Below, piece by piece: positions 10,647 to 54,309 of a stretch of DNA of 64,000 nt; the first letter of the stretch is position 1; each line of letters opens with the position of its first letter. The notes below the pieces were generated by a model, which saw nothing but the letters and a program-made list of their open reading frames with translations, did not search any database and had not been told where the DNA came from. The DNA comes from a virus, in the IMG/VR virus record IMGVR_UViG_3300027759_000074, positions 14,364 through 78,363 of that record; one strand, written 5' to 3'. The position numbers and the translations under genes are program-made.

Positions 10647-10756
10647 ATTGTCCTTAAAATTGGTGGGTTACTTGCGGTTTATATAATTGCAAAAATACCA
10701 TTTTAAACATATAAATAAAGTGCTTTCACCCATTGCGTTTACTGCAAATTACTTAT

Positions 10757-10951
10757 TTACTTTGCGTGTCGTGCAAATTCATCTCGGCAGTCTGTTGAGC
10801 ACCACCTTCTTGTATCGGGAACGTCTTCACCACACCACGTACACTTGCCCGAAAGGTTCGGGGCCACTTTAGCTTCCGCTGCAGCGTTTTTAATTGCAAT
10901 ATCAGTGATGACTTCCATGTATTCATTGGCTCTGTCTATTTCGTCTGCCAT
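10757..10951 (-). CDS. TraR/DksA-like C4 zinc-finger protein
   Basis: N-terminal MADEIDRANE (DxxDxA) and CTWC...CSTDC. Confidence 0.65.
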   Translation of the reverse strand: MADEIDRANEYMEVITDIAIKNAAAEAKVAPNLSGKCTWCGEDVPDTRRWCSTDCRDEFARHAK

Positions 10952-11201
10952 ATTTTGTACCTAATTCTTTTCCCATAATTTGAAAATTTTGTGACCATTT
11001 ATTATTAGCGCTTCTCTTTTTGGGAAGTGTGACCTTACCCGCTTGTTCTAATCCAACTATTCTATCATAAGAGCTATTGATATTGTCTAGAAGTTTAGAC
11101 CTTGATATGTTAGGAAACTTTTCTATGCACTCATTAATTTTTACTACTAATTCTTCATCTGTTAATTTTTTGTATGCAGGTGTTACGCTCATATTAAACA
11201 T
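10923..11201 (-). CDS. Hypothetical protein
   Basis: ORF in a tightly packed minus-strand operon. Confidence 0.55.
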   Translation of the reverse strand: MFNMSVTPAYKKLTDEELVVKINECIEKFPNISRSKLLDNINSSYDRIVGLEQAGKVTLPKKRSANNKWSQNFQIMGKELGTKYGRRNRQSQ

Positions 11202-11371
11202 TCTCCGACTAATTCAAATAAATCCTCTTTAACTTGAGGTTCTTGTTCTAAGGTTATTATTGTAACATCTTTGTGTGTATCTCTATACCATTTAGCTTCA
11301 CGGCGTGACCATCTATACTTGCGGACGATCTCTCCGTCTTCAACTAAAGCGTGAGTAAAAGGTAAAGACAT
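11189..11371 (-). CDS. Hypothetical protein
   Basis: Strong SD AGGAGGAG. Confidence 0.6.
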   Translation of the reverse strand: MSLPFTHALVEDGEIVRKYRWSRREAKWYRDTHKDVTIITLEQEPQVKEDLFELVGECLI

Positions 11372-11422
11372 TTAATTACTCCTCCTATAAAACACAATGT
11401 TGTAAATACTATTATGCCGATT

Positions 11423-11431
11423 ATTATAGCA
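11423..11431 (-). promoter_or_regulatory. Extended -10 promoter (TGCTATAAT)
   Basis: Perfect TGnTATAAT in the intergenic gap upstream of 11371. Confidence 0.5.
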
Positions 11432-11438
11432 TCAAATT

Positions 11439-11654
11439 TCATTGTAGTGTAGGTTTCTCGACGGGTTCAAATGCTTGTAATGTTTCCATGAGGTCTTTGA
11501 AGTTTTCCTCTGAGCCACTAATCTCGTTAAACAAGTATAGCCTCGCATTGATGACAGCACTTAACTCTAACGGCGTTATATTATATCGTTCAACTTCGTT
11601 AATTAAAAAGTCATCTACTTTGTTACTCAATTCTGCTATCTCTAAGTCGTCCAT
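11439..11654 (-). CDS. Acidic hypothetical protein
   Basis: SD GGAGG; TAATG coupling. Confidence 0.6.
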   Translation of the reverse strand: MDDLEIAELSNKVDDFLINEVERYNITPLELSAVINARLYLFNEISGSEENFKDLMETLQAFEPVEKPTLQ

Positions 11655-11905
11655 TATAAGCCTCCTTCGGCTTCGGTTAATCGCTTACTATTATACTTTT
11701 TATTCTTTGATAAGCTGTGCGTATACTTTTGAAACTCTTTTTGTCCCATAAAATCTTCTAACACTAACTTGTATGCTTCGTTTAAATTAACTTCTTCATC
11801 AAATCCTAACGGCGCGTCTTTTAATAGAAGTTCATATTGTTCTTTTAATACTGCCACTATAATTGGTTCTGCTATTTCGTAATCAATGTCAAGCGTTATC
11901 TTCAT
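11654..11905 (-). CDS. Hypothetical protein
   Basis: SD GAGGAG; coupled ORF. Confidence 0.6.
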   Translation of the reverse strand: MKITLDIDYEIAEPIIVAVLKEQYELLLKDAPLGFDEEVNLNEAYKLVLEDFMGQKEFQKYTHSLSKNKKYNSKRLTEAEGGL

Positions 11906-12290
11906 CTTCTATCTCCTCATCTTTAGTTTTAAGATTTAATACTCGTCCGTCTTTTTTAATTCTATCTTTGAGCTTTTGTCTTAGTGAGTGTACATTCCAT
12001 TCAAGTAACCAACAGGATATATGAAGTATCGGACTATCTGACATAAACCAATCTAATGTATCAAGGGGGTATCCTTCTTTTAACTCAAAGTCAAGATCCT
12101 CTAACGCTTGGATAAATATTGCGGTAATGAGTCTACCCTCTGGCGTTCCGATTAACCCCGTTGAGTTTTGATCTAACGTTTTATCAATTGATGGTATAGC
12201 AATAACATTGTTATACTTACCTATGATGTTCATTTTAACCTCTAATAAAAAATGTGATTCTGAATTGTAACACGAGGTTTCATTTTCCAC
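11889..12290 (-). CDS. Hypothetical protein (start probably internal, MNIIGK)
   Basis: ORF track; SD GAGG before the internal ATG. Confidence 0.55.
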   Translation of the reverse strand: MENETSCYNSESHFLLEVKMNIIGKYNNVIAIPSIDKTLDQNSTGLIGTPEGRLITAIFIQALEDLDFELKEGYPLDTLDWFMSDSPILHISCWLLEWNVHSLRQKLKDRIKKDGRVLNLKTKDEEIEDEDNA

Positions 12291-12589
12291 CTAGGGTTTA
12301 CTGAAAAGTTATGGAAGTGGGTTGACCCTTTAGAATAGTCGGGCTCTAACTTATACATGACCCGCCATGCAAGTAAATAATATGGTTTGAGCTCGGCTTT
12401 CTGAGGGGGCTTTCGCTTGCCATACCAAGAAAACTGTGCTGGTCTCGCCATCTCTGAGCAAATACGCTCGGGTTTAAATTCTGCTCTACGCATCAATACG
12501 TAACCTACGGCGACCTGACCTTGATGGTTTTCGCCGCGGGCTTCCATAAAAATAGTTTGAGCTAAACAGGCTAACGCTTGATCTATCAT
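12242..12589 (-). CDS. SleB-like cell wall hydrolase (Hydrolase_2)
   Basis: CLAQTIFMEARGE, QFSW and HIFY motifs. Confidence 0.88.
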   Translation of the reverse strand: MIDQALACLAQTIFMEARGENHQGQVAVGYVLMRRAEFKPERICSEMARPAQFSWYGKRKPPQKAELKPYYLLAWRVMYKLEPDYSKGSTHFHNFSVNPRWKMKPRVTIQNHIFY

Positions 12590-12628
12590 CTAGACCTCCT
12601 TTTAAGCAACTGGCTTCAGTTATTTAAT

Positions 12629-12886
12629 TTATTTTGACTCGAGATAGTTCTTGAGTTCGTTGGCGTACCAAGCAATTTTGCCTGCGTCTTCAATGGGGTT
12701 ACCTTTGAGTCCGAGACGGCTTGAGTACTTGAGAAGATTTCCTTTGATATACCCACAATATTCTTCTGTGGATAGTTTTGCTTTAATAAAACTAATTGTT
12801 TCGATGCCACCCGTAGTATAGTGTGGCGGGCTATTTACCATATCAGGTGTACTTTTAATAGCTTCAAATTCTTCCGCTAATGTCAT
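12629..12886 (-). CDS. DUF3310-like phage protein
   Basis: DMVNSPPHY..GIETI..GN.LKY..R...K...ED..K..WY pattern. Confidence 0.8.
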   Translation of the reverse strand: MTLAEEFEAIKSTPDMVNSPPHYTTGGIETISFIKAKLSTEEYCGYIKGNLLKYSSRLGLKGNPIEDAGKIAWYANELKNYLESK

Positions 12887-13176
12887 ACTAACTCCTTTAT
12901 TGTTGTCAATAATGTGCTTATATTACTCTCATTTACCACGATTGTATATCCTCCAGCGGTTCTAATGCGTTTCATGTTGTTTTCTTGCAAAAAAGTGGGT
13001 ACATTCTTCCCCGATTTGCACTCAATACCTATAAACATACCACTATAACACGCGATAATGTCGGGTACTCCACTATGTCCATACCCTGTCATCATAGGAG
13101 AAAAGTGGTATGCTCCTAAGTCATCGAGTATCTTTTTAACTTGTTTCTTTACCTTACCTTCGGGTGTTGTTGCCAT
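12883..13176 (-). CDS. VRR-NUC nuclease (Holliday junction resolvase-like)
   Basis: TPEGKVKK, GVPDII, IECK and LQ motifs; start set at MATTPE. Confidence 0.85.
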   Translation of the reverse strand: MATTPEGKVKKQVKKILDDLGAYHFSPMMTGYGHSGVPDIIACYSGMFIGIECKSGKNVPTFLQENNMKRIRTAGGYTIVVNESNISTLLTTIKELV

Positions 13177-13291
13177 CGTTTGCCTTTTGTGTTTGCTCTG
13201 TTTGTTGTGGGGGTTCTGATTTAGGGCTTGGCATATATACACTTACCCATACCGCAACATATATAGCTGTTATCCATGCGATTGCATCCAT
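13154..13291 (-). CDS. Small membrane-anchored protein (45 aa, not in track)
   Basis: SD AAGGAG; MDAIAWITAIYVAVWVSVYMPSPKSEPPQQ... Confidence 0.45.
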   Translation of the reverse strand: MDAIAWITAIYVAVWVSVYMPSPKSEPPQQTEQTQKANDGNNTRR

Positions 13292-13301
13292 CTTCATCTC
13301 C

Positions 13302-13685
13302 TTAATCACCAAATTTTTTATAATAGACCTCGCCTTTTTTACGACGAGGTTGTTTGTCTTCGAGCTTGTGTTTAGTCACGCCCTTAATAACAAAGTCGGG
13401 CATCGGATGAAATAAATCTTGTAGAAAGCATCGCTCTATTTTGTAATAGTGCATACGTCCACTAATAATTTTACCCGATAACTGCCCCGATCTGTGCAAG
13501 AACGACATCAAGTTCGAGACACTCTTTAACTCAATGCCTAATTTATCTGATATATCTTTAGATGAATACTGTTCCTCATCTGTAAAGAACGCCAAAATAA
13601 TATCATATAGTTCAAATTGAGTTACGCTTTTCCCGTTGACTTGGTAATGCCTAACAATATCTGTCGCTCTCTTTTCTCTCATCAA
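13302..13685 (-). CDS. Winged-helix DNA-binding protein
   Basis: SSKDISDKLGIELKSVSNLMSFLHRSGQL followed by a beta wing. Confidence 0.6.
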   Translation of the reverse strand: MMREKRATDIVRHYQVNGKSVTQFELYDIILAFFTDEEQYSSKDISDKLGIELKSVSNLMSFLHRSGQLSGKIISGRMHYYKIERCFLQDLFHPMPDFVIKGVTKHKLEDKQPRRKKGEVYYKKFGD

Positions 13686-13969
13686 TGTCCTACCTTATCT
13701 AACTTAGTGAGCATATAAAGATCAGCCCAATGTAAGTCATCGTTAAGGTACTCGTCTCTATATGTAATGACGCTTGCATCATAAATACCCACAAGCTTTC
13801 GATAAACATTCTTATCTGTCGTGCCTAACTCATCACCTACTTTCTTTGCCATGAAGCTCTTACCACTATAATATAATTCGATGCGACTATCTTTGGTAGG
13901 GTTATTAGATTCAAATGCTTGATGTATCCTAGTACTAATGCGTTTAAAATCTTTATGTACATTATCCAT
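13682..13969 (-). CDS. Hypothetical protein
   Basis: SD AAGGAG. Confidence 0.6.
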   Translation of the reverse strand: MDNVHKDFKRISTRIHQAFESNNPTKDSRIELYYSGKSFMAKKVGDELGTTDKNVYRKLVGIYDASVITYRDEYLNDDLHWADLYMLTKLDKVGH

Positions 13970-13983
13970 TATATCTCCTTTAA

Positions 13984-14265
13984 TTAATCTTCACACGATC
14001 CACCGATACAAGCTCGGCTCGTGATCTCGTTTTCAAGTTCTTCCATAGCATCGCGTACAGCATACGACTCTGCATCTTCTTTAAGTCTCGCGTACGGGCT
14101 ATGATCTACTTCTTTTGACCATACTTTAATGATCATGCCTTTCTCTCTCATGTGCTCTGCAATCTGCGTTGAGATATAGTCGGTAGGTTCTACCCCCCAT
14201 GACTCGACAACTTTATACTCGTCATCATTTAATTTTAACTCTGCTACTATAATAAATTTAATCAT
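13984..14265 (-). CDS. Hypothetical protein (C-terminal CIGGSCED)
   Basis: SD GAGG; ORF track. Confidence 0.6.
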   Translation of the reverse strand: MIKFIIVAELKLNDDEYKVVESWGVEPTDYISTQIAEHMREKGMIIKVWSKEVDHSPYARLKEDAESYAVRDAMEELENEITSRACIGGSCED

Positions 14266-14274
14266 GTCCTCTCC

Positions 14275-14508
14275 TTAATGTATCCAAAAACTAATTAATA
14301 ATCCTACTACTACCCATACACCTGCTTCAATCGGATTAATACGTTTGATATGAACCCATGCGTCTGCACCTAGATGATCTTTTTTCTCAGGTATTGGAGT
14401 TCCTAATCTTTTACTAATTCTTTTCGCAGCTCTTTTTCTCATGCGTTGATAGTCGTGATTAATTTCGTTCAGCTTTCTATCAATACTTATGTTTTGTTTA
14501 AATGCCAT
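14275..14508 (-). CDS. Hypothetical protein with C-terminal TM helix
   Basis: AGVWVVVGLLISFWI; SD GGAG. Confidence 0.6.
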   Translation of the reverse strand: MAFKQNISIDRKLNEINHDYQRMRKRAAKRISKRLGTPIPEKKDHLGADAWVHIKRINPIEAGVWVVVGLLISFWIH

Positions 14509-14517
14509 ACTTATCTC

Positions 14518-14814
14518 CTAGTTTGTTGTATTAGTTTTAAGAATTGTTTCGCTAGTCTTATCTGTGCTCTGAGTTTCATTTGCGTTTGCTTTCTCCTGTT
14601 CAAATTTTCTTAATGATTCGATGTATTGATTAGTGGCAAAGTTTAAACCTCGTATTACACCAATCCTCATCGCTGTATAAAACATCTCTGCATCCTTTTC
14701 TTTTCGCTCTCGCTTATGTACGTCAACGTACTGATAGTATTCAGCTACGGCTACTTCGATAATGTCTTCTTCAAACTTTCGTTTCTTTTCTTCGTTCTTC
14801 TGATGTTGGGTCAT
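14518..14814 (-). CDS. Hypothetical protein
   Basis: SD GGAGG. Confidence 0.6.
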   Translation of the reverse strand: MTQHQKNEEKKRKFEEDIIEVAVAEYYQYVDVHKRERKEKDAEMFYTAMRIGVIRGLNFATNQYIESLRKFEQEKANANETQSTDKTSETILKTNTTN

Positions 14815-14978
14815 TCGTATATCCTCCCTACTCCTTCAAAAATTCCAACTAAATCGTTGGGTTTAAAATCGTTCTTGTTATATGAGAACGGCATCTTTTT
14901 TCCATTAGCGTGTTTAACATAGCCTGTCACTATGACTTGCTCCACGATAATCTGTTTCTGTTTCTCTTTAGTAGTCAT
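14811..14978 (-). CDS. Hypothetical protein (55 aa, not in track)
   Basis: MTTKEKQKQIIVEQVIVTGYVKHANGKKMPFSY...; ATGA overlap with the next gene; fills the gap. Confidence 0.5.
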   Translation of the reverse strand: MTTKEKQKQIIVEQVIVTGYVKHANGKKMPFSYNKNDFKPNDLVGIFEGVGRIYE

Positions 14979-15204
14979 GGCTTTTGTGTTCGTCCTCCCT
15001 TTGTTGTTTTAATAAGTATTCATCTGTTTGTGACATCGGCGCGTCGTAAACTTTGGGTGGCGTAGGTTTATGGTAGTCTTTAATTTCAAACCCTGTCATA
15101 AAATGGTTCTCACCACAACAACTCCCTTTCCACTCGGGTACGGCATCATAGCAATACACGCAATAAGTCACATCATCTTCTAAATCATCATAGTCATCAC
15201 TCAT
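14968..15204 (-). CDS. Small Cys/His zinc-binding hypothetical protein
   Basis: CVYC...CCGENH. Confidence 0.55.
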   Translation of the reverse strand: MSDDYDDLEDDVTYCVYCYDAVPEWKGSCCGENHFMTGFEIKDYHKPTPPKVYDAPMSQTDEYLLKQQREDEHKSHDY

Positions 15205-15407
15205 ACTGTTTCCTTGTCTTGTTTAACATCGCTTGATTGCTTACGCCATGCTTTAATTAACGCAAAGCGTTTAGCTTCGAGTTCTGTTCTAGGCGTCGCC
15301 CATTGGTAATAGTTATATTTAAAGTAGTCTTGTATCTTATCATTATTCGTTTTCATACACCACCCCGTCTGCATCATCAAAACGTTTGTCATCGCTTGGT
15401 TCATCAT
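15201..15407 (-). CDS. Hypothetical protein (start probably internal, MKTNN)
   Basis: ORF track; ATGA overlap. Confidence 0.45.
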   Translation of the reverse strand: MMNQAMTNVLMMQTGWCMKTNNDKIQDYFKYNYYQWATPRTELEAKRFALIKAWRKQSSDVKQDKETV

Positions 15408-15603
15408 AGTACGGCTCGATGTTTAATAGGTGACAGATGTCATTATAAGTAGCTACCCCACCGCTTGACATTCGTTGGCAGTCCCACCCTAAGTCTAAAA
15501 CTAAGTTCGTTAGCTTTTTGTCTAAGGCTTTGCTCTCATCTTTGAGCGTAGCGATTTTGTTTGTTGCATCGATGTATAGTTCGTTTAATTCGTCGTAAGT
15601 CAT
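15343..15603 (-). CDS. Acidic hypothetical protein
   Basis: SD AAGGAG. Confidence 0.6.
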   Translation of the reverse strand: MTYDELNELYIDATNKIATLKDESKALDKKLTNLVLDLGWDCQRMSSGGVATYNDICHLLNIEPYYDEPSDDKRFDDADGVVYENE

Positions 15604-15718
15604 GATGTCTCCTTATAGTCATCAACTTCAAATCTTAATAGCCGTGTACCTTCAAAAATTTCAACTATCTCAAAATCAAATCCCGCTTTAACTAATGCCT
15701 CATACAATTCTTCTGCTG

Positions 15719-15976
15719 TCATGCCACCACTCCTTTCAATGCTTGTCTAAGTTCTGCTTTTAACTCAGGTGACGTCGATGATAGTATGGGGGCTATCATA
15801 TACTTGATCGCTTTCTTAACGTCGTACTCAAACTCATGCCAGTCGCGGTCTATCGTATCATTAGTAAACTTTTTCTTTGTGTACCCTGTGCCGTCATGTA
15901 CCACAACGATTGACCACTTGCGACTACGTTGTAGTTCAAGGATAATGTTTCTGTTATGGTTTCTTAATACTCTCAT
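15719..15976 (-). CDS. Hypothetical protein
   Basis: SD AAGGAG; ATGA overlap. Confidence 0.6.
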   Translation of the reverse strand: MRVLRNHNRNIILELQRSRKWSIVVVHDGTGYTKKKFTNDTIDRDWHEFEYDVKKAIKYMIAPILSSTSPELKAELRQALKGVVA

Positions 15977-16158
15977 GCTAGTCTCCTTATAATCTCTGTG
16001 TTATCTTCGTCACAGCCCTCGTACGTTAAGTCAAGTATTGATGACGGGTTTTTCTCTAACGCTTTCTCGTATGCGTCGTCTTGATTATCAGCGTTCACTA
16101 CAACTTCGTGTGAATATAAAAATCTAAATGTATAAGTATTGTCTATCTTTGGTTTCAT
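15973..16158 (-). CDS. Hypothetical protein, first gene of the middle operon
   Basis: SD GAGGA; lies downstream of the promoter at 16206-16235. Confidence 0.6.
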   Translation of the reverse strand: MKPKIDNTYTFRFLYSHEVVVNADNQDDAYEKALEKNPSSILDLTYEGCDEDNTEIIRRLA

Positions 16159-16205
16159 ACAATCCTCGCGGTCTAAATAGTTAATAATGTTTATTACGAA
16201 TTATT

Positions 16206-16235
16206 ATTAGAGCATACTTTTTGGACTTTGTGTAA
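16206..16235 (-). promoter_or_regulatory. Promoter TTACAC-N18-TCTAAT
   Basis: Same architecture as 20501-20530 and 20873-20902. Confidence 0.45.
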
Positions 16236-16635
16236 ATTATTTTAATGTTTTTTATCATTTGTGAGACATTTTTTAAATCAAGCGACCCTCTTTGATAAGC
16301 AAAACTTATCAATCCTCACGTTAAAACTATAAAGTCTCGCGTCCTAATTATATAAACCCACTCCTATCGAGCCTACTATGCGTCTCATGGCGACCCCGTT
16401 TAAACCCCTCTCCCCAAAGTCTCGCGTTCTAACTAAGGCTCACGTCCTCTATAGCAACTGGTTTCAAAAAACTAAGGGTGGGCTTAGTTTTAGCGTGGGG
16501 GGTAGGGCGCAGCTTAAATTGAATTTGAATAACCATGTTATGAGTAGGGTTATTTATTTTGTGGTGTCCTGTGTGTCGGGTGTACCTTTCTTTTTTAGTG
16601 TGACTTGGTTGGGTTGTGGGCGTGAATAACGCCCA

Positions 16636-16661
16636 ATAAAAAGCCCCTAGAATATAGGGGC
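16636..16661 (-). terminator. Intrinsic terminator of the early operon
   Basis: Minus strand GCCCCTA-TATTC-TAGGGGC followed by TTTTTATT, 22 nt after the stop at 16684. Confidence 0.8.
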
Positions 16662-16683
16662 GTTAAGTTAAAACTTAGTCCCC

Positions 16684-17781
16684 TTAGGTGCGTTCGTGTC
16701 CGTGTTCTAGTTCGTGGTTGTAGTCGTCCCACTCATGCACGGGGTTAGGGTTTAAAGTGTTGTAGTAGGGTTCATTATAGGCGTTATATTCGGCGTCCAT
16801 TGAGTAAGCATACACGTCTAAAAGTTCGCTCACGGCGTCTGCTATGTCCTCGGGGTGCGCTGTCTTAATCCAATTTAATAAGCCCTTATAATCTTTTGAA
16901 TATAACTCATCAATGACGGGGCTTGACCCTATGCCGTAATAATCGTTAGCCCCCCACGTTGAGCCGTAGCCTTGTTTATATTCCACCTTGGTGTAGTCAC
17001 GTTCGTAAGGTAGGGTTATCTCGTCCCACTTGATCGCTAGTACCTTGTCCCGTAGTTTTAAAACGTGGTCGGTGTCTAGGGTTTCTTTGTTGCTGTGTTC
17101 TGATTGATAGCCTATCGATATGTTTAGGCACTCGCTCACTTGTTCCATGTATTGCGCCGTGTCTGTGTATAGCCCTGTGTCGTCTAGTTCGTACCCCATG
17201 CCGAGAAGCGAAGCGATAGCATTTGAGCAAGTATCACTTGACGCCCTCTCACCCATTTGGTGCGTAATTACTGACGTGGTGCCCCGTCTGTCAAAGGCTA
17301 TGGCGTGGGTAAATTGTTTTAAAAAATCTTGATAAAGTGTCGCCACTTGTTTTGACCCCCAACACCCCCGCTCCTCTCCTCTGTGGAATACATACACCCC
17401 GCCAATGTTAGCTTGTACCATTTCCAATAAAAGAAAAGCCCCTGCGCCGTCATCTGCTCCCAAACAATCGGACGCTTCACTTACAAACGCTGTCCCGAAG
17501 TCGTCACAAAATACGTCTTGTTTTATTGTGTCGGGGTTTGAGTTGTGCATGGTGTCAATATGACAGCTCCATAAAGTTGTATTCGCTGTGCTGTTCTCTT
17601 TTCTATTGTCTATATAGTAGGCTATGACCTCGCCCGTTTCGTTTTTAAGTTGTTGGACGTCCCCGCCTGATAGATAAGTTTCTATAAAATACGCTTCGCC
17701 TTTCGTGCCGTGTTGGCGTCTTATTGATAGTATTTCTAATAAGTTGTTTCTTAATATTTCGTTTTGTTTAGTTGTTTTCAT
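16684..17781 (-). CDS. M28/M20-like zinc metallo-exopeptidase
   Basis: CHIDT, LGADDGAG, GEERG, AFDR and EH ligand motifs. Start moved to ATG 17781 (SD AAGGGG). Confidence 0.82.
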   Translation of the reverse strand: MKTTKQNEILRNNLLEILSIRRQHGTKGEAYFIETYLSGGDVQQLKNETGEVIAYYIDNRKENSTANTTLWSCHIDTMHNSNPDTIKQDVFCDDFGTAFVSEASDCLGADDGAGAFLLLEMVQANIGGVYVFHRGEERGCWGSKQVATLYQDFLKQFTHAIAFDRRGTTSVITHQMGERASSDTCSNAIASLLGMGYELDDTGLYTDTAQYMEQVSECLNISIGYQSEHSNKETLDTDHVLKLRDKVLAIKWDEITLPYERDYTKVEYKQGYGSTWGANDYYGIGSSPVIDELYSKDYKGLLNWIKTAHPEDIADAVSELLDVYAYSMDAEYNAYNEPYYNTLNPNPVHEWDDYNHELEHGHERT

Positions 17782-19411
17782 CTGTTGCCCCTTGTGTAGT
17801 TGTTTCGTTGGTTTCGGTTTCTTCTTCTTCGTCAATCTCTGCTTGTAATTCGTCTGCGTCATCTTTATGGCATAACTTTCCGTTGCTTAGTTCGTGAATG
17901 TCATCTTCGTGGGCGTAGTTGTTGCCCTCGCTGTCCTCATAGTCCAATCGCTTAGCATAGCTTTCATGTATAAAGCCCATTGAAGTATGTACTAAATCAT
18001 CTATGTGGTAATACTCATCTGACGCTTCGCATGGGTATATGTCGTTTTCACTTAAATAATTGCTGTCGTAGTATTCATCACTCGCATAAATAGCATTATC
18101 GCTGTGGACGTAGTATTGATCGCCATTACGCCCATAAACGTAAGTATAATCATTACCCAAACAATTCTCACAAACATGGCGGTCTGTGTCCTCAACGTAT
18201 TCTATATCGTCCTCGTCCACGTTGTCCCCGCATTCGTCACAAGTCCATTCTTCAACGTTGGACGTCCACCCGTTTGTATTCGCTAGATCATATTCGCCGT
18301 CACCTATGACTAAATAAGTTTTCCCGTCTATGTTCTCGGGGTCTGCTGTTTGGCTTCCGCCGTTCCCGTAGTCAATATATGGGGTCATAAAAACGTCATC
18401 TTCATTGGGGTGTGGTACACCTAGCAATAAACACCCGTTAAGGTTTGTCTGCTTTTCATAACCTAGATTTTTTAATGTATCCAACATGAAACGCCCCTCT
18501 GCGTGTCCGTTTGGGTCGGGGTAAACTCTGATATATCCCTTTGATGCGTCCCCCGTGTCGTCATAGTTGTTTTGAGTTCTAACTATTGCACGGGCTATGA
18601 CTGCGCCACCTTCCAACATATAAGCCAATTTTAAAACGCTCTTTTCGTGGGCGTACACTTGCACCGCTTTTGAGTTGGTCATACATGAATTAAATCTCTC
18701 GCCCTGTCCGTAGATATTCACCCACCCCGTGCCGTCTGTGCTTTCAATAAAGCGTACTTCCCACCCCGCTTGTGCTTGTACCCGTGCGGTGTGTGCTTCT
18801 GTAATGCTTTTAATTTCTAGGTCTGTGAGTTGTATTTCTTCTTTAAACTGCGTTAGATATTTTCCTAGTTTGGTTCTAACTTCCCGCCCCTGTCTAAAAT
18901 GATCTAAGTTCGGATAGTAAGCAATTAACATAGGGGACATGAGCGAATAATGGACGTTATGAAGTGAGTGCAAGTTGTTAAGTTTTGATAGTTTGTCGGT
19001 GTCATTCATGCCATACTTAACCCAATCTAGTTTTTCCCATTCACCCGTTTTGAATTTCTGTCTTATATCTAATACACGGGGCTCTATTCTTTTAAGTATC
19101 TCGTCCCGTATGTGATGCGTTAAATAATTAATATAGTTTATGACACTTTCGGGGGACGCCTTCCTAGCGTCTTTTACTTTCGCCCGTTCTATTGCGAGTG
19201 AGTGCCCGTTTAATTTAAATTCTTTAGCCGTTGCCTTGTGACTAAAATTAATACGGGGCTCTTTTGTTTTTGCTTTTAGTTGGTCTTGCATAAAGTTTTT
19301 TATATCATATCGGGCGTACCCGTCTTTGATTAGTCCGCTAAACGTGACAAGGTGCGGGGGTATCGGTCTTACTAGGTTTCTAACTGCGTTGAGTTGGTGT
19401 GTGTTTAACAT
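17768..19411 (-). CDS. Large early protein with SCM motif and acidic Zn-ribbon-like C-terminal repeats
   Basis: FNSCM, ARAIV, IRVY, PYID; then CDECGD..VCENC and a D/E/Y-rich tail. Confidence 0.6.
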   Translation of the reverse strand: MLNTHQLNAVRNLVRPIPPHLVTFSGLIKDGYARYDIKNFMQDQLKAKTKEPRINFSHKATAKEFKLNGHSLAIERAKVKDARKASPESVINYINYLTHHIRDEILKRIEPRVLDIRQKFKTGEWEKLDWVKYGMNDTDKLSKLNNLHSLHNVHYSLMSPMLIAYYPNLDHFRQGREVRTKLGKYLTQFKEEIQLTDLEIKSITEAHTARVQAQAGWEVRFIESTDGTGWVNIYGQGERFNSCMTNSKAVQVYAHEKSVLKLAYMLEGGAVIARAIVRTQNNYDDTGDASKGYIRVYPDPNGHAEGRFMLDTLKNLGYEKQTNLNGCLLLGVPHPNEDDVFMTPYIDYGNGGSQTADPENIDGKTYLVIGDGEYDLANTNGWTSNVEEWTCDECGDNVDEDDIEYVEDTDRHVCENCLGNDYTYVYGRNGDQYYVHSDNAIYASDEYYDSNYLSENDIYPCEASDEYYHIDDLVHTSMGFIHESYAKRLDYEDSEGNNYAHEDDIHELSNGKLCHKDDADELQAEIDEEEETETNETTTQGATDENN

Positions 19412-19412
19412 A

Positions 19413-19508
19413 TTAGAAGCCCCCCATGATTAAAGTTAAAAAGCACCAAAAAGAAAATAAACACCATATCAAAAAGAAGCCATACCCGATTAATTTTAAC
19501 TTGCTCAT
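19413..19508 (-). CDS. Micro membrane protein (31 aa, not in track)
   Basis: MSKLKLIGYGFFLIWCLFSFWCFLTLIMGGF; ATGA overlap and G-rich SD. Confidence 0.5.
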   Translation of the reverse strand: MSKLKLIGYGFFLIWCLFSFWCFLTLIMGGF

Positions 19509-19666
19509 AGATAACCCCCCATTAATAACGCTAACACCATGCACCCGAAAAGAGTTCCCGCAATAATACCAAGCCCGATCATAAAGCCGTCAATGTCTTG
19601 TTGGCGTTTCATTTGTCTTATACGTCCTAGTTCTTCGTATCTTTTTTCTAGTCTAGTTAGTCTCAT
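19505..19666 (-). CDS. Small membrane protein (53 aa, not in track)
   Basis: MRLTRLEKRYEELGRIRQMKRQQDIDGFMIGLGIIAGTLFGCMVLALLMGGYL. Confidence 0.55.
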   Translation of the reverse strand: MRLTRLEKRYEELGRIRQMKRQQDIDGFMIGLGIIAGTLFGCMVLALLMGGYL

Positions 19667-20045
19667 TTTGATTTTCTTCCTCGTTTTGTTCTCGTGTGAT
19701 GAGTTCGTTTAATGCTTGGTTGATTTGAGTTGATGCGATTAAGTCTAAAAGGGTTGGGGGTTGTTTGTCCCCGTGTTTAATTGCGTGTTCGGCTCTTAGG
19801 TTGTTTTCAAGTTCCCTTGCGTAGTTTTCTGTTTGTTTCATATCGTGGGGCGTTGCGTTGTAGAAGTATTTAACACCGATTTGATGCCCGTTTATTGTAA
19901 TGCTTCCGCCGTTGGCTTCGTCAAAAAAGGTTTTGCCTTGTGGTGTTTGTGTCACTTCATAACTTTTGGTTGGTCTTATCTCGTTGCGTAGTGCTTCGAT
20001 CATGTCAAAGCGTTGTGCTTCTGTTGATAGGTTTGAGTTTTCCAT
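19653..20045 (-). CDS. Early hypothetical protein
   Basis: SD AAGGA. Confidence 0.6.
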   Translation of the reverse strand: MENSNLSTEAQRFDMIEALRNEIRPTKSYEVTQTPQGKTFFDEANGGSITINGHQIGVKYFYNATPHDMKQTENYARELENNLRAEHAIKHGDKQPPTLLDLIASTQINQALNELITREQNEEENQNETN

Positions 20046-20057
20046 GGTTTGTTTTCC

Positions 20058-20426
20058 TTAGTTGGTTTGAAATTTTTGTTGTTGTGCTTTTATTACTCTA
20101 AACAATGTCGGCTTGATGTCATCTGGATTTAATACGATTGAAGCGTTATCGTACTGCTCCCAATAAGTCCCGAAGCGTTGCGCCCATTCATTTAGTGTTG
20201 GGTGTATGGGTTCGGTCGGTCTAAACTCGCCGTAAGTGTCATAAACAAATAGATCGGCGTTCAACATATCTTCACTAGATATAAATAAAAGTCCGTCACG
20301 TTCAAAGGCGTTGGGCTTGGCATAATCTTCCGTGAAATCTTTTGTTTCTTTGTCCCATTTAAAATACTTAATAGAGGGTAGTAGATCAATGAGTTCTTGT
20401 GCGGTTGCGTGTGGTTGCTTAGTCAT
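20058..20426 (-). CDS. Early hypothetical protein
   Basis: SD AAAGG; downstream of the promoter at 20501-20530. Confidence 0.6.
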   Translation of the reverse strand: MTKQPHATAQELIDLLPSIKYFKWDKETKDFTEDYAKPNAFERDGLLFISSEDMLNADLFVYDTYGEFRPTEPIHPTLNEWAQRFGTYWEQYDNASIVLNPDDIKPTLFRVIKAQQQKFQTN

Positions 20427-20500
20427 AATGTGCCTTTCGTTAAGTTGCTTAAAATTTAATCAGTTGTTAAGTGGTGCTTTTTTCTGTGTTGCTGTGCGTG

Positions 20501-20530
20501 ATTATAATTCGGCGTTTTCTGTTTGTGTAA
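20501..20530 (-). promoter_or_regulatory. Early promoter TTACAC-N18-TATAAT
   Basis: Perfect -10, AT-rich UP-like region, AGCAACACA downstream. Confidence 0.6.
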
Positions 20531-20617
20531 TTTATTTTATGTTCGTTGGGTTAAATAAGAAAAGGGCTAAGCATAAACCATGCCAAGCCCCCCAAATATA
20601 ACCTTGCTCCCGTGTGC

Positions 20618-20830
20618 CTAGTTTGCGACAGCTTGGGACGCCGTTTTATATAGTTTTAAGCCCAATAGCCCGATAACCAAAAAGAAAAGCGATAAGCCCC
20701 AATTTTCCCCGTGATGTATAGCTAAACAAAAACCCGATATAAAAAGGCTCAAGGTTGGAATGAGTGCTAAGTAGATGTTAAAAAGTTTTAATGCTGTTTT
20801 GCTTGGTTTGTTTGCTGTTGATGTGTTCAT
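20618..20830 (-). CDS. Two-TM early membrane protein
   Basis: Two hydrophobic segments; SD AAGGGA. Confidence 0.55.
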   Translation of the reverse strand: MNTSTANKPSKTALKLFNIYLALIPTLSLFISGFCLAIHHGENWGLSLFFLVIGLLGLKLYKTASQAVAN

Positions 20831-20872
20831 GTTTAATTTCCCTTTGTTGTTTAAGTTTTATTGTGTTGCTAT

Positions 20873-20902
20873 CTGATAAACGTTTAATTTTTCCGAATGT
20901 AA
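20873..20902 (-). promoter_or_regulatory. Early promoter TTACAT-N18-TATCAG
   Basis: Same spacing as the other two; followed by AGCAACACA. Confidence 0.4.
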
Positions 20903-20943
20903 GGCTTTTCTGTGTTTATTTTGTTTTATTTTGTTTTATTTTG

Positions 20944-21305
20944 TTAAGTGCTTGATTTTAAACGTGTGTCCATGTGTCCACTTCATAAACTATACTCATT
21001 ATGCTTGGTCACAGGCTTTGTGGACTAAGTTGGTGTTCGTAAGTCTTTGTTTTATATATATAATATATTATTTATTATTATTATTAGTTGTCTTGTGCCC
21101 ATGTGCCCACTACTTATGCAGAGTGAAGACTGCGGGGTTTTTACACTTGCGAGGTGACACGAAGCCCTACCAAGTTTTCCAAGTTTACCCCCCGCCCCCT
21201 ATGTTTAAACGTGGACACAACGGACACAAACGTTATTAATCAAAGACTTAGCTTAAATTAGTGGACACAAGAATGGACACCAAGTCGCACCAAGTGGACA
21301 CAAGG
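20944..21305. repeat. Inverted GTGGACAC iteron-like arms with IHF-consensus sites around an AT-rich core; candidate replication origin
   Basis: 20944-20981 is an imperfect reverse complement of 21211-21251. WATCAANNNNTTR matches at 20945-20957 (minus) and 21238-21250 (plus). AT-only tract at about 21050-21086. Confidence 0.65.
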
Positions 21306-21330
21306 TCAAACGGGGTTAGGTCGGGGCTTA

Positions 21331-21428
21331 CTTAGTGGACGCAGTTGGACTTAGTTGGACGAAGTGACGCAGAAAAGGACGCAGTTGGACAAAATTGGAC
21401 TTGGTTTTGACTTGGTGGACTTAGCGAC
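21331..21428 (+). repeat. 10-bp phased GGAC tandem repeat
   Basis: GGAC ends at 21340, 21350, 21360, 21380, 21390, 21400 and 21420; unit approximately nnAGTTGGAC. Confidence 0.8.
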
Positions 21429-21634
21429 CCCACCCGTACCCGACCACCCCAAATTTAGTTGGGACTCCGTGGACTCTGTTTACACTTGAATTCGCACAAA
21501 TAGTAGGCAAAAAGTTCAAAATCTATAGGAAACACCCCCCGTCACTCAAATAAAGGGCATTCTAAAAAAATTTTTATAAAAAAATTCTGAAATATCAGGG
21601 AGTTAACTGCAAAAAGTGCATGAAACTTTAATAA

Positions 21635-21964
21635 CTACGCGGAAAAAGAAGATCCACAACCACATGTACTAGTTGCAGCGGGGTTTTTTATTTCAAAACC
21701 TGATGTCATTAAAGAAGTATTGTAACTTATAACCGATCCAGTTAGGTATTGCATACTATGTGCGTCTACAAGAAGGGATACTTCGTCCTGAACCACTATA
21801 AAGTCATCTTCGTTTTGAGTGTCGTCAAAAGTAAAACCGTATTGAAACCCAGAACAACCACCACCGGATACATAGATTCGTAGTTTAAGTCCTTTGACTT
21901 CTTCATCTGCTAACAGATCTTTTATTTTTACTATTGCAGAGCTTTCTAGGGTTATTGGATTCAA
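21635..21964 (-). CDS. erpA: A-type Fe-S cluster carrier/insertion protein (ErpA/IscA/HesB)
   Basis: LRIYVSGGGCSGFQYGFTFD and NPAATSTCGCGSSFS signatures. Confidence 0.93.
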   Translation of the reverse strand: MNPITLESSAIVKIKDLLADEEVKGLKLRIYVSGGGCSGFQYGFTFDDTQNEDDFIVVQDEVSLLVDAHSMQYLTGSVISYNTSLMTSGFEIKNPAATSTCGCGSSFSA

Positions 21965-22305
21965 ATTGCTTTAGGATCGAAGTTGTAGAGCTCGGAGTAA
22001 ACGTCTTTAATCTTAAGAAACTTCTCGCCGTGCTGATCAAAGTCATCGTCGCCCTTATAATAGAGGTGTAAATGTATCATTTCATGAAGCAATGTCTGAA
22101 AAATGGTTATAAAGTGACCACAAGACCCAGAACTTATTTCAATAGCCATGTCCACTTCGTCAAAACATCCATAAATGCCAGGGTTCTTAATGACACGAAA
22201 GGTAACTTTGTTAGATTTAGGCATCTTTAATTTATTAAAAGGGGGTAGTTGACAAGCCATGTTATATAGTATCTCAAGGTTTTTCTTAGTCAACGTAGTT
22301 TTCAA
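21961..22305 (-). CDS. SprT-like zinc metalloprotease
   Basis: TLLHEMIH followed by HGEKF. Confidence 0.75.
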   Translation of the reverse strand: MKTTLTKKNLEILYNMACQLPPFNKLKMPKSNKVTFRVIKNPGIYGCFDEVDMAIEISSGSCGHFITIFQTLLHEMIHLHLYYKGDDDFDQHGEKFLKIKDVYSELYNFDPKAI

Positions 22306-22709
22306 AAGGTAAACTCCTTGTAGATCATAATTCGATTAGGTTCTACTCTAACTGGGCTCTTACTAGGCTGTTCTTTGGGTAGTCTTGGTTCAAACAAAGC
22401 AGGGTTATAAAATTCAGTAGACTTAGATTGAGGGAAGTACACCTTAACAGCTTTGAACCTATCTATGATATCCATAGTCCAACAACCTTCGTGATTAGCT
22501 TGACCCAGTTTAATAACGTAAGCTGCATAAGGATAGCCCTTCAAACCCATCTTTGTATACTCACAAGGTTCTCTAGTCAATACAACTTCACCCGATGGGG
22601 TCTTTACAAAGAATTCTTTTATCTCGTCAGCACGAGCATCTTCAATAGGCCACATAGCAACCCACCAAAGTAGAATCCCTGCAACACCAATTGTAAATAA
22701 ATCTTTCAT
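22302..22709 (-). CDS. Exported hypothetical protein
   Basis: Hydrophobic N-terminus ending ARA-D (signal peptidase-like site); Cys pair. Confidence 0.6.
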   Translation of the reverse strand: MKDLFTIGVAGILLWWVAMWPIEDARADEIKEFFVKTPSGEVVLTREPCEYTKMGLKGYPYAAYVIKLGQANHEGCWTMDIIDRFKAVKVYFPQSKSTEFYNPALFEPRLPKEQPSKSPVRVEPNRIMIYKEFTF

Positions 22710-50890: not shown

Positions 50891-51375
50891 TGTTTAGCAT
50901 CCTCTCATCCATACTAGGTTTTGCTACTGCAGGTTTACCTAGCATACTAGGGTTCTTTCAACAAAAAGGAGACCAATCACATGAACGTGAAATGGCTAAG
51001 TTGCAAAATGAACAAGCTCTACTTATGGCTCAAAAAGGTTTTCAATCTCAAGAAAAAATAGCAGCTATTGAATTGGAGGGTACTTATGCAGAAACATTCG
51101 CACAAGAACGTCAAGCACTATATGAACACGATGCAAAACTGGTTCACGATGCAGCACCCTGGGTTAGAACTCTTAACGCAAGTGTCCGCCCTATTGTTGC
51201 TTTCACTTTTGTAGCATTACTTTTATTTGTAGATATTGGTGGCTTTATTTGGGCTATTAAATCTGCAGGCTTTAGTCGTGAGTCTATGGACATTATATTT
51301 TCTGATGATGAGATGGCTATTGTAGGTTCTATTATTGGTTTCTACTTTGGTGCTAGGACTTGGGAAAAGAAATAA
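50890..51375 (+). CDS. Probable holin (3TM, GTA-holin-like)
   Basis: SVRPIVAF and IIGFYFGAR; immediately precedes the lysozyme gene. Confidence 0.7.
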   Translation: MFSILSSILGFATAGLPSILGFFQQKGDQSHEREMAKLQNEQALLMAQKGFQSQEKIAAIELEGTYAETFAQERQALYEHDAKLVHDAAPWVRTLNASVRPIVAFTFVALLLFVDIGGFIWAIKSAGFSRESMDIIFSDDEMAIVGSIIGFYFGARTWEKK

Positions 51376-51825
51376 GTGAATGTATCAAAAGCTGGCATCG
51401 CTCTTATCAAACATCACGAGGGTGTGCGTAGTCGTCCCTATCGTTGTCCTGCAAACTTGTGGACTGTTGGTGTTGGTCATCTTATCGGGGATGGCAAATT
51501 GTTGCCTGATTCTTGGAACAGAACTTTTACGGAAGTTGAAATAGATGGACTTCTTAAATCCGACTTACGTCGCTTCGAGCTGGGAATATCTAAGATGTTA
51601 CCTAACGTGCCTCTTAGACAATGTGAATTTGATTGCCTTGTATCTTTTGCCTTTAACCTTGGCTTGGGTACATTTCAGCGATCAACACTCCGTCAAGCGC
51701 TTCTACGCGGCGATAAAAAGACGGCTATGGAATCGTTAGTTAAATATTGTCGCGCAGGTGGTAAAATACTCAAAGGTCTACAAACTCGTAGGCTAGATGA
51801 GAAAGCACTCTTTGAAAGTAAATAA
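51376..51825 (+). CDS. Endolysin, GH24 lysozyme
   Basis: LIKHHEG..YRCPA..WTVGVGH, FDCLVSFAFNLG and GL..RR..E. Confidence 0.92.
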   Translation: MNVSKAGIALIKHHEGVRSRPYRCPANLWTVGVGHLIGDGKLLPDSWNRTFTEVEIDGLLKSDLRRFELGISKMLPNVPLRQCEFDCLVSFAFNLGLGTFQRSTLRQALLRGDKKTAMESLVKYCRAGGKILKGLQTRRLDEKALFESK

Positions 51826-53786: not shown

Positions 53787-53787
53787 T

Positions 53788-53973
53788 ATGGCAAATTATA
53801 TTACCACTGTAAAAGCACCTGCGTTAGCGTTAACCCCTACACAGTTTTCTCAAATACACTTTGACTTATATAATGCTCAACTTCGTGTTTACTTTAATAC
53901 AGTCGATGCAGCTAATGCACAAACACAACAAGCAGTTAACAGTCTTAATACTATGATTTGGTTAGGATTATAA
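53788..53973 (+). CDS. Small tail protein
   Basis: QLRVYFN helix; position after the nozzle gene. Confidence 0.55.
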   Translation: MANYITTVKAPALALTPTQFSQIHFDLYNAQLRVYFNTVDAANAQTQQAVNSLNTMIWLGL

Positions 53974-54309
53974 ATGGCATATCAAAATATAACAGGCATA
54001 CAATTAGGTCAAGCTGAAATTACAACGGGGTATACTACTATTTATACTACGCCTGCAACTTCAAGAACCTATGTCAAAGACATTAATATATGTAATACCA
54101 CCGGAATATCTTGCACTGTAACTGTTTGTTTAGTACCTAGCTTAGATTCAGCAGGACCAGAAAATGCGTTAATATATAACTTAACACTCTTTGGTAGTGA
54201 CTTATATAGATGGCAAGGTGTTCAAATTATGAATGCTGGAGATACCATACAAGTTAAAGCTTCTGCAACCGGTGCTACAATTACCATTTCTGGTGGTGAA
54301 GCTGTATAA
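53974..54309 (+). CDS. Small beta-sandwich tail protein
   Basis: IYTTPA..INICN..GDTIQV. Confidence 0.6.
   Translation: MAYQNITGIQLGQAEITTGYTTIYTTPATSRTYVKDINICNTTGISCTVTVCLVPSLDSAGPENALIYNLTLFGSDLYRWQGVQIMNAGDTIQVKASATGATITISGGEAV

What the first reader, a model, noticed from the sequence alone, without database searches (positions are those of the whole stretch)
16513..21400. Early block purged of restriction-type motifs, with extreme strand polarity (CAG versus CTG)
Seen (manual count): in 16513-20460 the plus strand has one CAG (17564) against about 40 CTG. AGAC appears absent while GTCT is common. CCGG, GGCC, CCNGG, GGNCC, GANTC, GCNGC and CGCG were not found up to about 21.4 kb, yet GATC, GCGC and AGCT remain. 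Genes on the same strand at 0.4-10.6 kb have abundant CAG, so this is not a coding-strand effect. Established: Type III enzymes (EcoP15I CAGCAG, EcoP1I AGACC, StyLTI CAGAG) need head-to-head sites, and T7 escapes by polarising them. Inference: this is the first-entering DNA, exposed before an anti-restriction or modification function acts. Alternative: avoidance of CUG in early mRNA by a sequence-specific RNase.
Basis: partly seen in the sequence, partly recalled or inferred. Interest (0 to 1): 0.78.

Follow-up and report, generated by a model that had tools for sequence, protein, structure and literature searches.

The report
Word-purged immediate-early operon of a phage
The first operon of a freshwater phage's early arm has lost one trinucleotide (CTG) from its sense strand and about a dozen restriction-type words, which looks like selection by host nucleases; no known enzyme explains the one-strand loss of a 3-letter word.

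Summary
In 16513-20460 the + strand has 1 CAG against 42 CTG. The genes lie on the minus strand, so their sense strand lacks CTG in all three frames. I observed 1 CTG; synonymous-codon shuffles give 16.9 and genome codon usage gives 29.3 (z -5.1 and -6.3). The depletion is graded: about 95% in the block, 35-55% in the next 6 kb, about 22% in the replication genes and near 0% in the late genes. GTTC and GTCT are also absent from the sense strand, and CGCG, GGCC, CCGG, GANTC, ACNGT, CCNGG and GGNCC from both. Nine 4-mers are missing unexpectedly here, against 0-3 in 12 control blocks.

The block is one operon, with a sigma-70-like promoter and an intrinsic terminator, just downstream of an iteron-like, AT-rich array. 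Thirty-eight related loci carry lineage-specific word signatures in the orthologous gene, as defence-driven selection would give.

Restriction-type purging of an early region is well supported. "First-entering DNA" could not be tested because no termini were found. Type III enzymes cannot explain a 3-nt word. DnaG priming and RNA structure are disfavoured. Whether CTG is read on DNA or RNA stays open. This is a new variant of a known kind.

The parts
16511..20460 (-). Zone with a single sense-strand CTG (that is, one + strand CAG, at 17564). It also lacks sense-strand GTTC and GTCT, and lacks CGCG, GGCC, CCGG, GANTC, ACNGT, CCNGG and GGNCC on both strands.
20501..20529 (-). Sigma-70-like early promoter, TACACA-17-TATAAT (10 of 12 matches), about 70 nt upstream of the first ORF. 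One CTG (20461-20463) lies in the predicted 5' leader.
   Evidence: An equivalent TTGACA promoter sits at the same place in relative L011.
20058..20426 (-). First ORF of the operon: 122 aa, pI 4.7, no known family.
19653..20045 (-). Second ORF: 130 aa, pI 4.85, no known family.
19413..19666 (-). Two short overlapping hydrophobic ORFs (53 aa and 43 aa). Coding status not verified.
17768..19411 (-). 547-aa early protein. The N-terminal part is helical, the middle domain has weak GNAT-fold similarity, and the C-terminal half is very acidic with CxxC zinc-ribbon-like motifs. More than 130 metagenomic homologues were found. It contains 0 CTG against 8 expected.
16684..17862 (-). 392-aa M28-like peptidase (phrog_4191, PF04389). 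It overlaps the preceding gene by 95 nt and holds the only sense-strand CTG of the block.
16643..16661 (-). Intrinsic-terminator-like hairpin (7 pairs, 5 of them G-C) followed by a T run, 23 nt after the peptidase stop codon.
20900..21480 (.). Non-coding array: TTGGAC repeats phased at 10 bp (21337-21420), GTGGACACAA three times (21210-21304), paired TGTG(T/C)CCA motifs, and an AT-rich run (about 21040-21095). It looks like iterons with an unwinding element, or possibly a packaging site. It marks the upstream limit of most site-free gaps.
10650..16510 (-). Small-ORF early region with partial sense-strand CTG depletion (16 against 24.2 / 36.7). CCGG, GGCC, CCNGG and GGNCC are absent here too.
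21635..22709 (-). Three minus-strand genes upstream of the array: an ErpA/IscA-like Fe-S protein, a SprT-like protein and an unknown. They are not CTG-depleted (12 against 13.5) and carry the first restriction-type sites.

Best explanation
The block is the promoter-proximal, immediate-early operon of the leftward early arm of a podovirus-like freshwater phage (unit length probably about 64 kb). It starts just downstream of an iteron-like, AT-rich array.

Selection acting through synonymous codon choice has removed from it a lineage-specific set of short words that host nucleases read. Palindromic 4-5-mers of Type II restriction type are removed from both strands. The words CTG, GTTC and GTCT, none of which contains A, are removed from the sense strand only.

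The purge is strongest here and fades with distance along the early arm. The likely reason is that this is the part of the genome most exposed to host defences before the phage's own early proteins act. That means first expressed and, by inference, first inside the cell.

Shown: the purge, its codon-independence, its regional gradient, the operon anatomy, and lineage-specific signatures in relatives.

Inferred: that host nucleases are the selective agent, that entry is staged, and which molecule (DNA or RNA) is read for CTG.
For: Size of the purge:
- CTG 1 against 16.9 / 29.3 expected; GTTC 0 against 6.4 / 8.5; GTCT 0 against 4.5 / 6.3.
- CGCG 0 against 9.0, GGCC 0 against 5.6, CCGG 0 against 4.1, GANTC 0 against 4.8, ACNGT 0 against 5.5, GGNCC 0 against 5.2, AGCT 3 against 9.6.
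- Nine 4-mers with 3 or more copies expected are absent (summed expectation 51). Twelve control blocks of similar size have 0-3 such words (summed expectation 12.8 or less).

Location of the purge:
- 8-9 of 32 palindromic words have their longest gap in the window here; the median over positions is 2.
- GAAC, AGAC, GTWAC, GGATG and CATCC also have their longest gaps here.
- The right-hand limits of the gaps cluster at 21.1-22.2 kb.
- GATC, GCGC, ACGT, CATG, GTAC and CTAG are at expectation, so the purge is word-specific and not a general avoidance of palindromes.
- The CTG depletion is graded across temporal or positional classes.

Anatomy: promoter and terminator bracket the block.

Relatives:
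- CCGG is 0 in all 34 distinct orthologues, against a summed expectation of 57.
- GATC, GGCC, CGCG, GTAC, TCGA and ACGT are each absent in some lineages and normal or enriched in others.
- Sense-strand CTG depletion recurs in about 10 of 34 orthologues. It covers a roughly 10-kb early arm in L015, L011, L009 and L034.

Precedent: phages lacking a Type I motif only in the first-injected region escape restriction, as reported in the abstract of PMC12455610.
Against: - No genome termini could be mapped, so first entry is unproven.
- The neighbouring array with an AT-rich run is typical of an origin and need not mark a DNA end.
- No restriction enzyme is known to read a 3-bp word.
- No recognisable anti-restriction gene or methyltransferase was found in the early arm.
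- The host, and therefore its restriction-modification repertoire, is unknown here.
- In this phage the 1.1-kb non-coding stretch upstream of the promoter is free of palindromic sites but not CTG-polarised (8 CAG against 11 CTG on the + strand). One cause may therefore not cover both signals.
- Some palindromes are enriched in the same gene in relatives. Simple avoidance does not predict that.
Confidence: 0.5

Rival explanations
1. RNA-level reading of CTG. The immediate-early mRNA is kept free of CUG because a single-strand endoribonuclease cuts at CUG while this transcript must function. The enzyme could be a MazF-like host toxin or abortive-infection RNase, or a phage host-shutoff RNase. 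Later transcripts are protected because the enzyme has by then been neutralised. The palindrome purge would be a separate, DNA-level effect.
For: - The word is 3 nt long, strictly strand-specific, always on the sense strand, and absent in all three frames. That matches frame-independent mRNA interferases with 3-7-nt specificities that differ between bacterial lineages (PMC7781912, title and abstract; titles listed).
- In this phage the CTG-free zone (16511-20460) matches the predicted transcription unit, from a start site near 20494 to the terminator at 16643-16661. The palindrome-free zone runs about 1 kb further upstream.
- Other lineages deplete different sense-strand 3-mers, CTC and TCT in L012, L014 and L035.
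Against: - No CUG-specific, frame-independent RNase turned up in the literature search. The only mention was YoeB cutting the in-frame CUG codon.
- In the group-2 relatives the CTG-poor zone includes 600-900 nt of repeat array upstream of the strong early promoter, which is probably untranscribed. That region holds 1 CTG against 13 CAG across L011, L015, L009 and L034, which are related and so not independent.
- One CTG sits in the predicted 5' leader.
- The GAAC and AGAC polar gaps cross the terminator and non-coding DNA.
Confidence: 0.25
2. Orientation-dependent DNA enzymes (Type III or Type ISP restriction-modification) need head-to-head sites. The leading DNA escapes by keeping CAG-, AGAC- and GAAC-containing sites in one orientation until an anti-restriction function is made.
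For: - Three asymmetric words are purged in one orientation only, alongside palindromes purged on both strands.
- The polar gaps for GAAC (14886-21790) and AGAC (16264-21127) include non-coding DNA.
- T7 shows complete polarity of the EcoP15I word, 36 against 0.
- The gradient fits protection that only matters while little DNA is inside the cell.
Against: - Type III and ISP sites are 5-7 bp. One or a few such enzymes would remove only a small fraction of the 17-30 expected CTGs, not all of them.
- Surviving CTGs in the partly depleted regions show no common extended context.
- The replication and late genes carry both orientations, so head-to-head pairs exist once about 10 kb or more has entered.
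- Neither first entry nor a host Type III system has been shown.
Confidence: 0.15
3. Replication-linked cause. With an origin at the iteron array, the sense strand is the lagging-strand template of the leftward fork. CTG, the preferred initiation trinucleotide of proteobacterial DnaG, would be avoided to prevent priming by host primase.
For: [quoted passage not shown]
- An iteron-like array with an AT-rich run lies next to the block.
- The cumulative GC-skew minimum lies at about 19-23 kb.
- The phage has its own primase-helicase.
Against: - The same paper shows that those DnaG enzymes also prime well on CTA. CTA is not depleted here (68 against 64.6), and it is the favoured CTN leucine codon in the block.
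- No benefit of an unprimable lagging-strand template is known.
- The effect is lineage-specific among relatives, whereas primase specificity is class-wide.
- This model does not explain the palindrome purge.
Confidence: 0.04
4. No selection on words. The pattern would be a by-product of unusual codon usage, amino-acid composition, recent horizontal transfer of the block, or selection for unstructured mRNA.
For: - The block is GC-richer (0.42-0.44 against 0.36-0.40) and uses more C-ending and fewer NCT codons than the rest of the genome.
- The abundance of AGAC largely reflects GAC codons in a very Asp-rich protein.
Against: - The depletion persists when the genes' own codons are only permuted among synonymous sites (z -5.1). 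It lies in codon junctions (0 of 36 and 1 of 30).
- Other NTG and CTN words are normal.
- The higher GC of the block is conserved in relatives whose proteins are only about 40% identical, so it does not look like recent transfer.
- Folding energies of the block's mRNAs do not differ from synonymous shuffles (z 0.4-0.8, the same as controls).
- Drulisvirus homologues show no depletion.
Confidence: 0.04

Closest known systems
Restriction-site avoidance confined to the first-injected region (Murciavirus / Autographiviridae against Type I Mme2I, PMC12455610; from my own memory, not checked here, the lack of EcoRI sites in the first-step-transfer DNA of T5)
   Same: Recognition words are missing from a contiguous early region while present elsewhere in the genome. 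The region is variable and carries early genes of unknown function.
   Different: Here about a dozen words are purged at once, in a phage of another type (HTVC023P-like terminase). Injection order is unknown. The strongest signal is a one-strand trinucleotide that no restriction-modification system is known to read.
T7 strand polarity of the EcoP15I site (all CAGCAG/CTGCTG sites in one orientation)
   Same: There is complete strand polarity of a CAG/CTG-based word. It was reproduced here as 36 against 0 in T7.
   Different: In T7 the word is a 6-mer, the polarity is genome-wide, and CTG overall is frequent on the coding strand (880 against 507). Here every CTG trinucleotide is missing, only in a 4-kb operon, and the rest of the genome has both orientations.
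Motif-free transcripts that resist mRNA interferases (ACA-less mRNAs and MazF; the engineered use is from my own memory, not checked here)
   Same: A 3-nt word is absent from the sense strand in all reading frames, achieved entirely through synonymous choices.
   Different: No CUG-specific interferase is known. A natural phage operon of this kind has not, to my knowledge, been described. The evidence on a DNA or RNA level is mixed.
Genome-wide palindrome avoidance in phages (for example PMC6286503)
   Same: GGCC is depleted throughout this genome (16 sites in 64 kb). GATC is absent from whole loci of some relatives.
   Different: The block adds region-specific losses (CGCG, GANTC, ACNGT, AGCT, TCGA) that are not seen in the late genes.

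Membership tests
Leading-region restriction-site avoidance | Recognition words are absent from one contiguous region but present elsewhere in the genome, beyond what composition or codon usage predicts. | tested here: met
Leading-region restriction-site avoidance | The region is the first DNA to enter the cell. | not testable with these tools
   Only low-coverage contigs of public runs were available and they gave no termini. The contig wraps into a diverged copy of itself.
Leading-region restriction-site avoidance | The host carries restriction-modification systems that read the avoided words. | not testable with these tools
   The host was not identified. No REBASE or methylome data were at hand.
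Leading-region restriction-site avoidance | The avoided word set differs between phage lineages (host-specific). | tested here: met
Type III evasion by site polarisation (T7 type) | Asymmetric sites are present in one orientation only. | tested here: met
   Within the block: CAG 1 against 42, AGAC 0 against 30, GAAC 0 against 27.
Type III evasion by site polarisation (T7 type) | The orientation is uniform over all DNA that the enzyme can see (the whole genome in T7). | tested here: not met
   The replication and late genes carry both orientations.
Type III evasion by site polarisation (T7 type) | The avoided word has the length of a Type III site (5-6 bp). | tested here: not met
   The whole trinucleotide is missing. 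Surviving CTGs share no extended context.
Interferase-resistant (motif-free) mRNA | The motif is absent from the sense strand in all three frames. | tested here: met
Interferase-resistant (motif-free) mRNA | The absence is confined to transcribed sequence. | tested here: inconclusive
   This holds in the window. It probably does not hold in the group-2 relatives.
Interferase-resistant (motif-free) mRNA | A cognate RNase with that specificity exists. | not testable with these tools
   The literature search found none for frame-independent CUG.
Avoidance of DnaG priming sites | All good initiation trinucleotides (CTG and CTA) are depleted on the template strand. | tested here: not met
   CTA is 68 against 64.6 expected. 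The specificity is taken from PMC2978363.

The most novel reading that the evidence does not exclude
The hosts of this phage group carry an undescribed defence that reads the bare trinucleotide CTG/CUG on a single strand. Alternatively the phage makes a shutoff enzyme with that specificity. The enzyme could be an RNA or ssDNA endonuclease or a frequent nickase. The immediate-early operon would then be a natural "CUG-less" message that stays functional while everything else is cut. Related lineages would have answered enzymes of other specificity by purging CTC and TCT instead.
Probability: 0.25. Interest if true: 0.8.

Novelty: new variant of a known kind. Interest (0 to 1): 0.62.

Why it matters
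Site avoidance is usually scored genome-wide and for palindromes. Here the signal is concentrated in one 4-kb operon. It combines about a dozen words, and its strongest component is a one-strand trinucleotide.

If defence-driven, the block is a readable record of the nuclease specificities that an uncultured freshwater host population imposes on its phages. The different signatures in 38 related loci would give a comparative map of those pressures.

It also argues that restriction-escape predictions should weight the early or leading region. It gives a concrete, cloneable test for a nuclease with 3-nt, single-strand specificity.

Tried and rejected
Terminus mapping: all 24 public runs holding the stretch are kept as contigs. 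Laying four of them gave short, low-depth pieces, with no ends and no usable polymorphism list.

Relatives were fetched with the search for related loci instead.

Host identification failed:
- A genome-contig scan with the ErpA-like protein found nothing.

No DNA match was found in cultured phages. A single-protein scan of viral contigs with the 547-aa protein also found nothing.

RNA-structure hypothesis: mean folding energy of the block's mRNAs equals that of synonymous shuffles. Rejected.

DnaG-priming hypothesis: CTA is not depleted. Disfavoured.

An extended motif around CTG: the contexts of surviving CTGs are diverse. The apparent lack of CTGG may reflect amino-acid content and CCWGG avoidance. 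No longer motif was supported.

Test with an inverted gene inside a depleted arm: the minus-strand ORFs in relatives look spurious, being shadows of real genes or repeat DNA. No test was possible.

Function of the block's proteins:
- Pfam and PHROGs gave only the M28-like peptidase.
- Foldseek gave weak GNAT hits for the 547-aa protein.
- The ESM Atlas gave no lead for the two small proteins.
- No anti-restriction family was found among the small ORFs.
- No phage RNA polymerase was detected.

Earlier notes of this scan held nothing on similar polarity elsewhere.

Full report
**What the window is.** The window is 64 kb of a single 78,363-bp phage contig (window = genome 14364-78363).
- Minus-strand genes from 0.4 to 20.4 kb encode a primase-helicase, an SNF2 helicase, a PD-(D/E)XK nuclease and a family A DNA polymerase. 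After these come about 20 small ORFs and then the block.
- From 22.8 kb onward the plus strand carries terminase, portal and virion genes.
- The large terminase is closest to those of HTVC023P/027P-type pelagiphages (about 50% identity).
- The first 14.8 kb of the contig is a 69-79% identical copy of its last 13 kb. The true unit length is therefore probably about 64 kb, like the 57-67-kb contigs of relatives.

**Check of the observation.**
- In 16513-20460 the + strand has CAG 1 against CTG 42 and AGAC 0 against GTCT 30.
- CCGG, GGCC, CCNGG, GGNCC, GANTC, GCNGC and CGCG are absent up to 21.4 kb. GATC and GCGC are present.
- The two longest CAG-free gaps of the window lie side by side here.
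- One correction: the genes of the block are on the minus strand. The real statement is that the sense strand lacks CTG, while sense-strand CAG is exactly as expected (41 against 39.8).

**Is it more than codon usage?** Yes.
- Permuting each gene's own codons among synonymous positions gives 16.9+-3.1 CTG. Redrawing codons from genome usage gives 29.3+-4.5. One CTG is observed (Poisson 8e-7 and 6e-12).
- The missing CTGs lie mainly in codon junctions. NCT codons are never followed by G (0 of 36, against 28% for other NCN codons). TGN codons are almost never preceded by a C-ending codon (1 of 30, against 28%).
- Every other NTG and CTN trinucleotide is normal, including CTA (68 against 64.6) and GTC (20 against 20.9).
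- On the same null, other words are absent from the sense strand or from both strands:

| Word | Observed | Expected |
|---|---|---|
| GTTC | 0 | 6.4 |
| GTCT | 0 | 4.5 |
| CGCG | 0 | 9.0 |
| GGCC | 0 | 5.6 |
| CCGG | 0 | 4.1 |
| GANTC | 0 | 4.8 |
| ACNGT | 0 | 5.5 |
| GGNCC | 0 | 5.2 |
| AGCT | 3 | 9.6 |

- Nine 4-mers with at least 3 copies expected are absent (summed expectation 51). Twelve control blocks of similar length have 0-3 such words.
- GATC, GCGC, ACGT, CATG, GTAC and CTAG are at expectation, so the purge is word-specific.

**Is it uniform across the genome?** No. Sense-strand CTG, observed against expected:

| Region | Observed | Expected |
|---|---|---|
| Block | 1 | 16.9 / 29.3 |
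| Small-ORF region | 16 | 24.2 / 36.7 |
| Replication genes | 77 | about 100 |
| Late genes | at expectation | |
| Three minus-strand genes upstream (21.6-22.7 kb) | 12 | 13.5 |

- For 8-9 of 32 palindromic words the longest site-free gap in the window lies over the block; the median over positions is 2. The same is true of GAAC, AGAC, GTWAC, GGATG and CATCC.
- The gaps share a right-hand limit at about 21.1-22.2 kb and have different left-hand limits between 9 and 18 kb.
The depletion does not vanish under a codon-aware null, and it is not uniform.

**Anatomy.**
- A sigma-70-like promoter (20529-20501, 10 of 12 matches) lies about 70 nt upstream of the first ORF.
- A strong terminator-like hairpin (16661-16643) follows the last gene. 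The block is thus one operon.
- Its genes are a 122-aa and a 130-aa acidic protein, two short hydrophobic ORFs, a 547-aa protein and an M28-like peptidase.
- The 547-aa protein shows weak GNAT-fold similarity and has a very acidic, zinc-ribbon-like C-terminal half.
- Upstream lies a non-coding array of 10-bp-phased TTGGAC repeats, further repeats and an AT-rich run.
- The pair of 547-aa protein and peptidase also sits in the early region of Drulisvirus podophages, where CTG is not depleted.

**Relatives.** A profile of the 547-aa protein retrieved 38 viral-contig loci with the same layout: terminase, divergent point, small genes, repeat array, early arm.
- CCGG is absent from all 34 distinct orthologues, against a summed expectation of 57.
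- Other words split the family into groups:
  - GATC is absent from whole loci in one group and enriched in the block in others.
  - GGCC and CGCG alternate between absent and abundant.
  - GTAC, TCGA and ACGT are each absent in some groups.
- Sense-strand CTG is depleted (z at or below -3) in about 10 of the 34 orthologues.
  - It is also low in the close relative L002/L003, with 7 CTG against 46 CAG in the block.
  - It stays low over about 10 kb of early arm in L015, L011, L009 and L034.
- Another group instead depletes CTC and TCT on the sense strand.
- Such labile, lineage-specific word sets in one orthologous gene are what changing host defences would produce. A property of the protein or of general mRNA biology would not.

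**Mechanism.**
- The palindromic losses are best read as avoidance of Type II-like restriction sites.
- Their restriction to the early arm makes sense only if this DNA is exposed before the rest. That was shown experimentally for a Type I system and the first-injected region of Murciavirus phages (PMC12455610). Here staged entry is inference, because no termini could be mapped.

For the CTG polarity I tested four ideas:
- Unstructured mRNA: rejected.
- DnaG priming: disfavoured, because those primases also use CTA (PMC2978363) and CTA is not depleted.
- Type III-style polarisation: T7's 36-against-0 bias was reproduced and three words are polar here. However, the word is only 3 nt, the surviving CTGs have no common longer context, and the rest of the genome has both orientations.
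- An RNA-level nuclease: this fits the 3-nt, sense-strand, all-frame pattern and the match to the transcription unit in this phage. But no such CUG enzyme is known. In the group-2 relatives the CTG-poor zone also covers the repeat array upstream of the promoter.

I therefore commit to defence-driven purging of the most exposed, immediate-early region as the overall explanation (0.5).

**Verdict.** This is a real, strong and statistically robust feature. It is a new variant of a known kind (regional restriction-word avoidance). It has an unexplained component, a one-strand trinucleotide void, that is worth an experiment.

Noticed in passing
genome 1-14783 against genome 65337-78319 (the latter = window 50974-63956): The first 14.8 kb of the contig is a 69-79% identical copy of its last 13 kb, which holds ejection and tail-type genes including the 1673/1813-aa protein. 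Either this is a tandem diverged duplication, or the assembly wrapped round into a co-occurring strain. The unit genome is then about 64 kb.
   Followed up: partly
window 21635-21964 (-): An ErpA/IscA-like Fe-S assembly gene (PF01521). Contigs in three metagenome runs skip it (joint 21583>21965), and its depth is far above that of its neighbours. It is probably a variable, host-derived auxiliary gene. It carries the first CCGG, CGCG, GCNGC, GTWAC, GAAC and ACNGT sites to the right of the purged zone.
   Followed up: partly
window 17768-19411 (-): The 547-aa early protein gave an AlphaFold model with mean pLDDT 80. Its middle domain gives weak GNAT-acetyltransferase fold hits. Its C-terminal 250 aa has 63 Asp+Glu against 10 Lys+Arg, with CxxC pairs. 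It is paired with an M28-like peptidase here and in Drulisvirus early regions.
   Followed up: partly
L004, L017, L021, L027, L028 (orthologues of the 547-aa gene and flanks): Some palindromes are enriched beyond the own-codon null in the same block in relatives: GATC 29 against 19 and 10 against 3 (12-19 per kb in L021 and L028), GGCC 10 against 4, TCGA 19 against 12, and CGCG 9-16 per kb in L015-type loci. This is unexplained. It may be a by-product of avoiding other words in an Asp-rich gene.
   Followed up: no
window 20900-21480; L011 6650-7200: A conserved position holds a repeat array plus an AT-rich run between the upstream small genes and the early promoter. The repeat units differ by lineage (TTGGAC / GTGGACACAA here, (A/C)GTTCA(C/T)G in group 2). 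It could be an origin or a packaging site.
   Followed up: partly
L012, L014, L035 early arms: Strong sense-strand depletion of CTC and TCT (for example TCT 36 against 75, and CTCT 0 against 13.7 with AGAG at 52) instead of CTG. GACG is also depleted (20 against 54 in L029).
   Followed up: no
whole window: GGCC is rare genome-wide (16 sites in 64 kb, with a 32-kb gap elsewhere). The sense-strand TC dinucleotide is low in the block (observed/expected 0.59).
   Followed up: no
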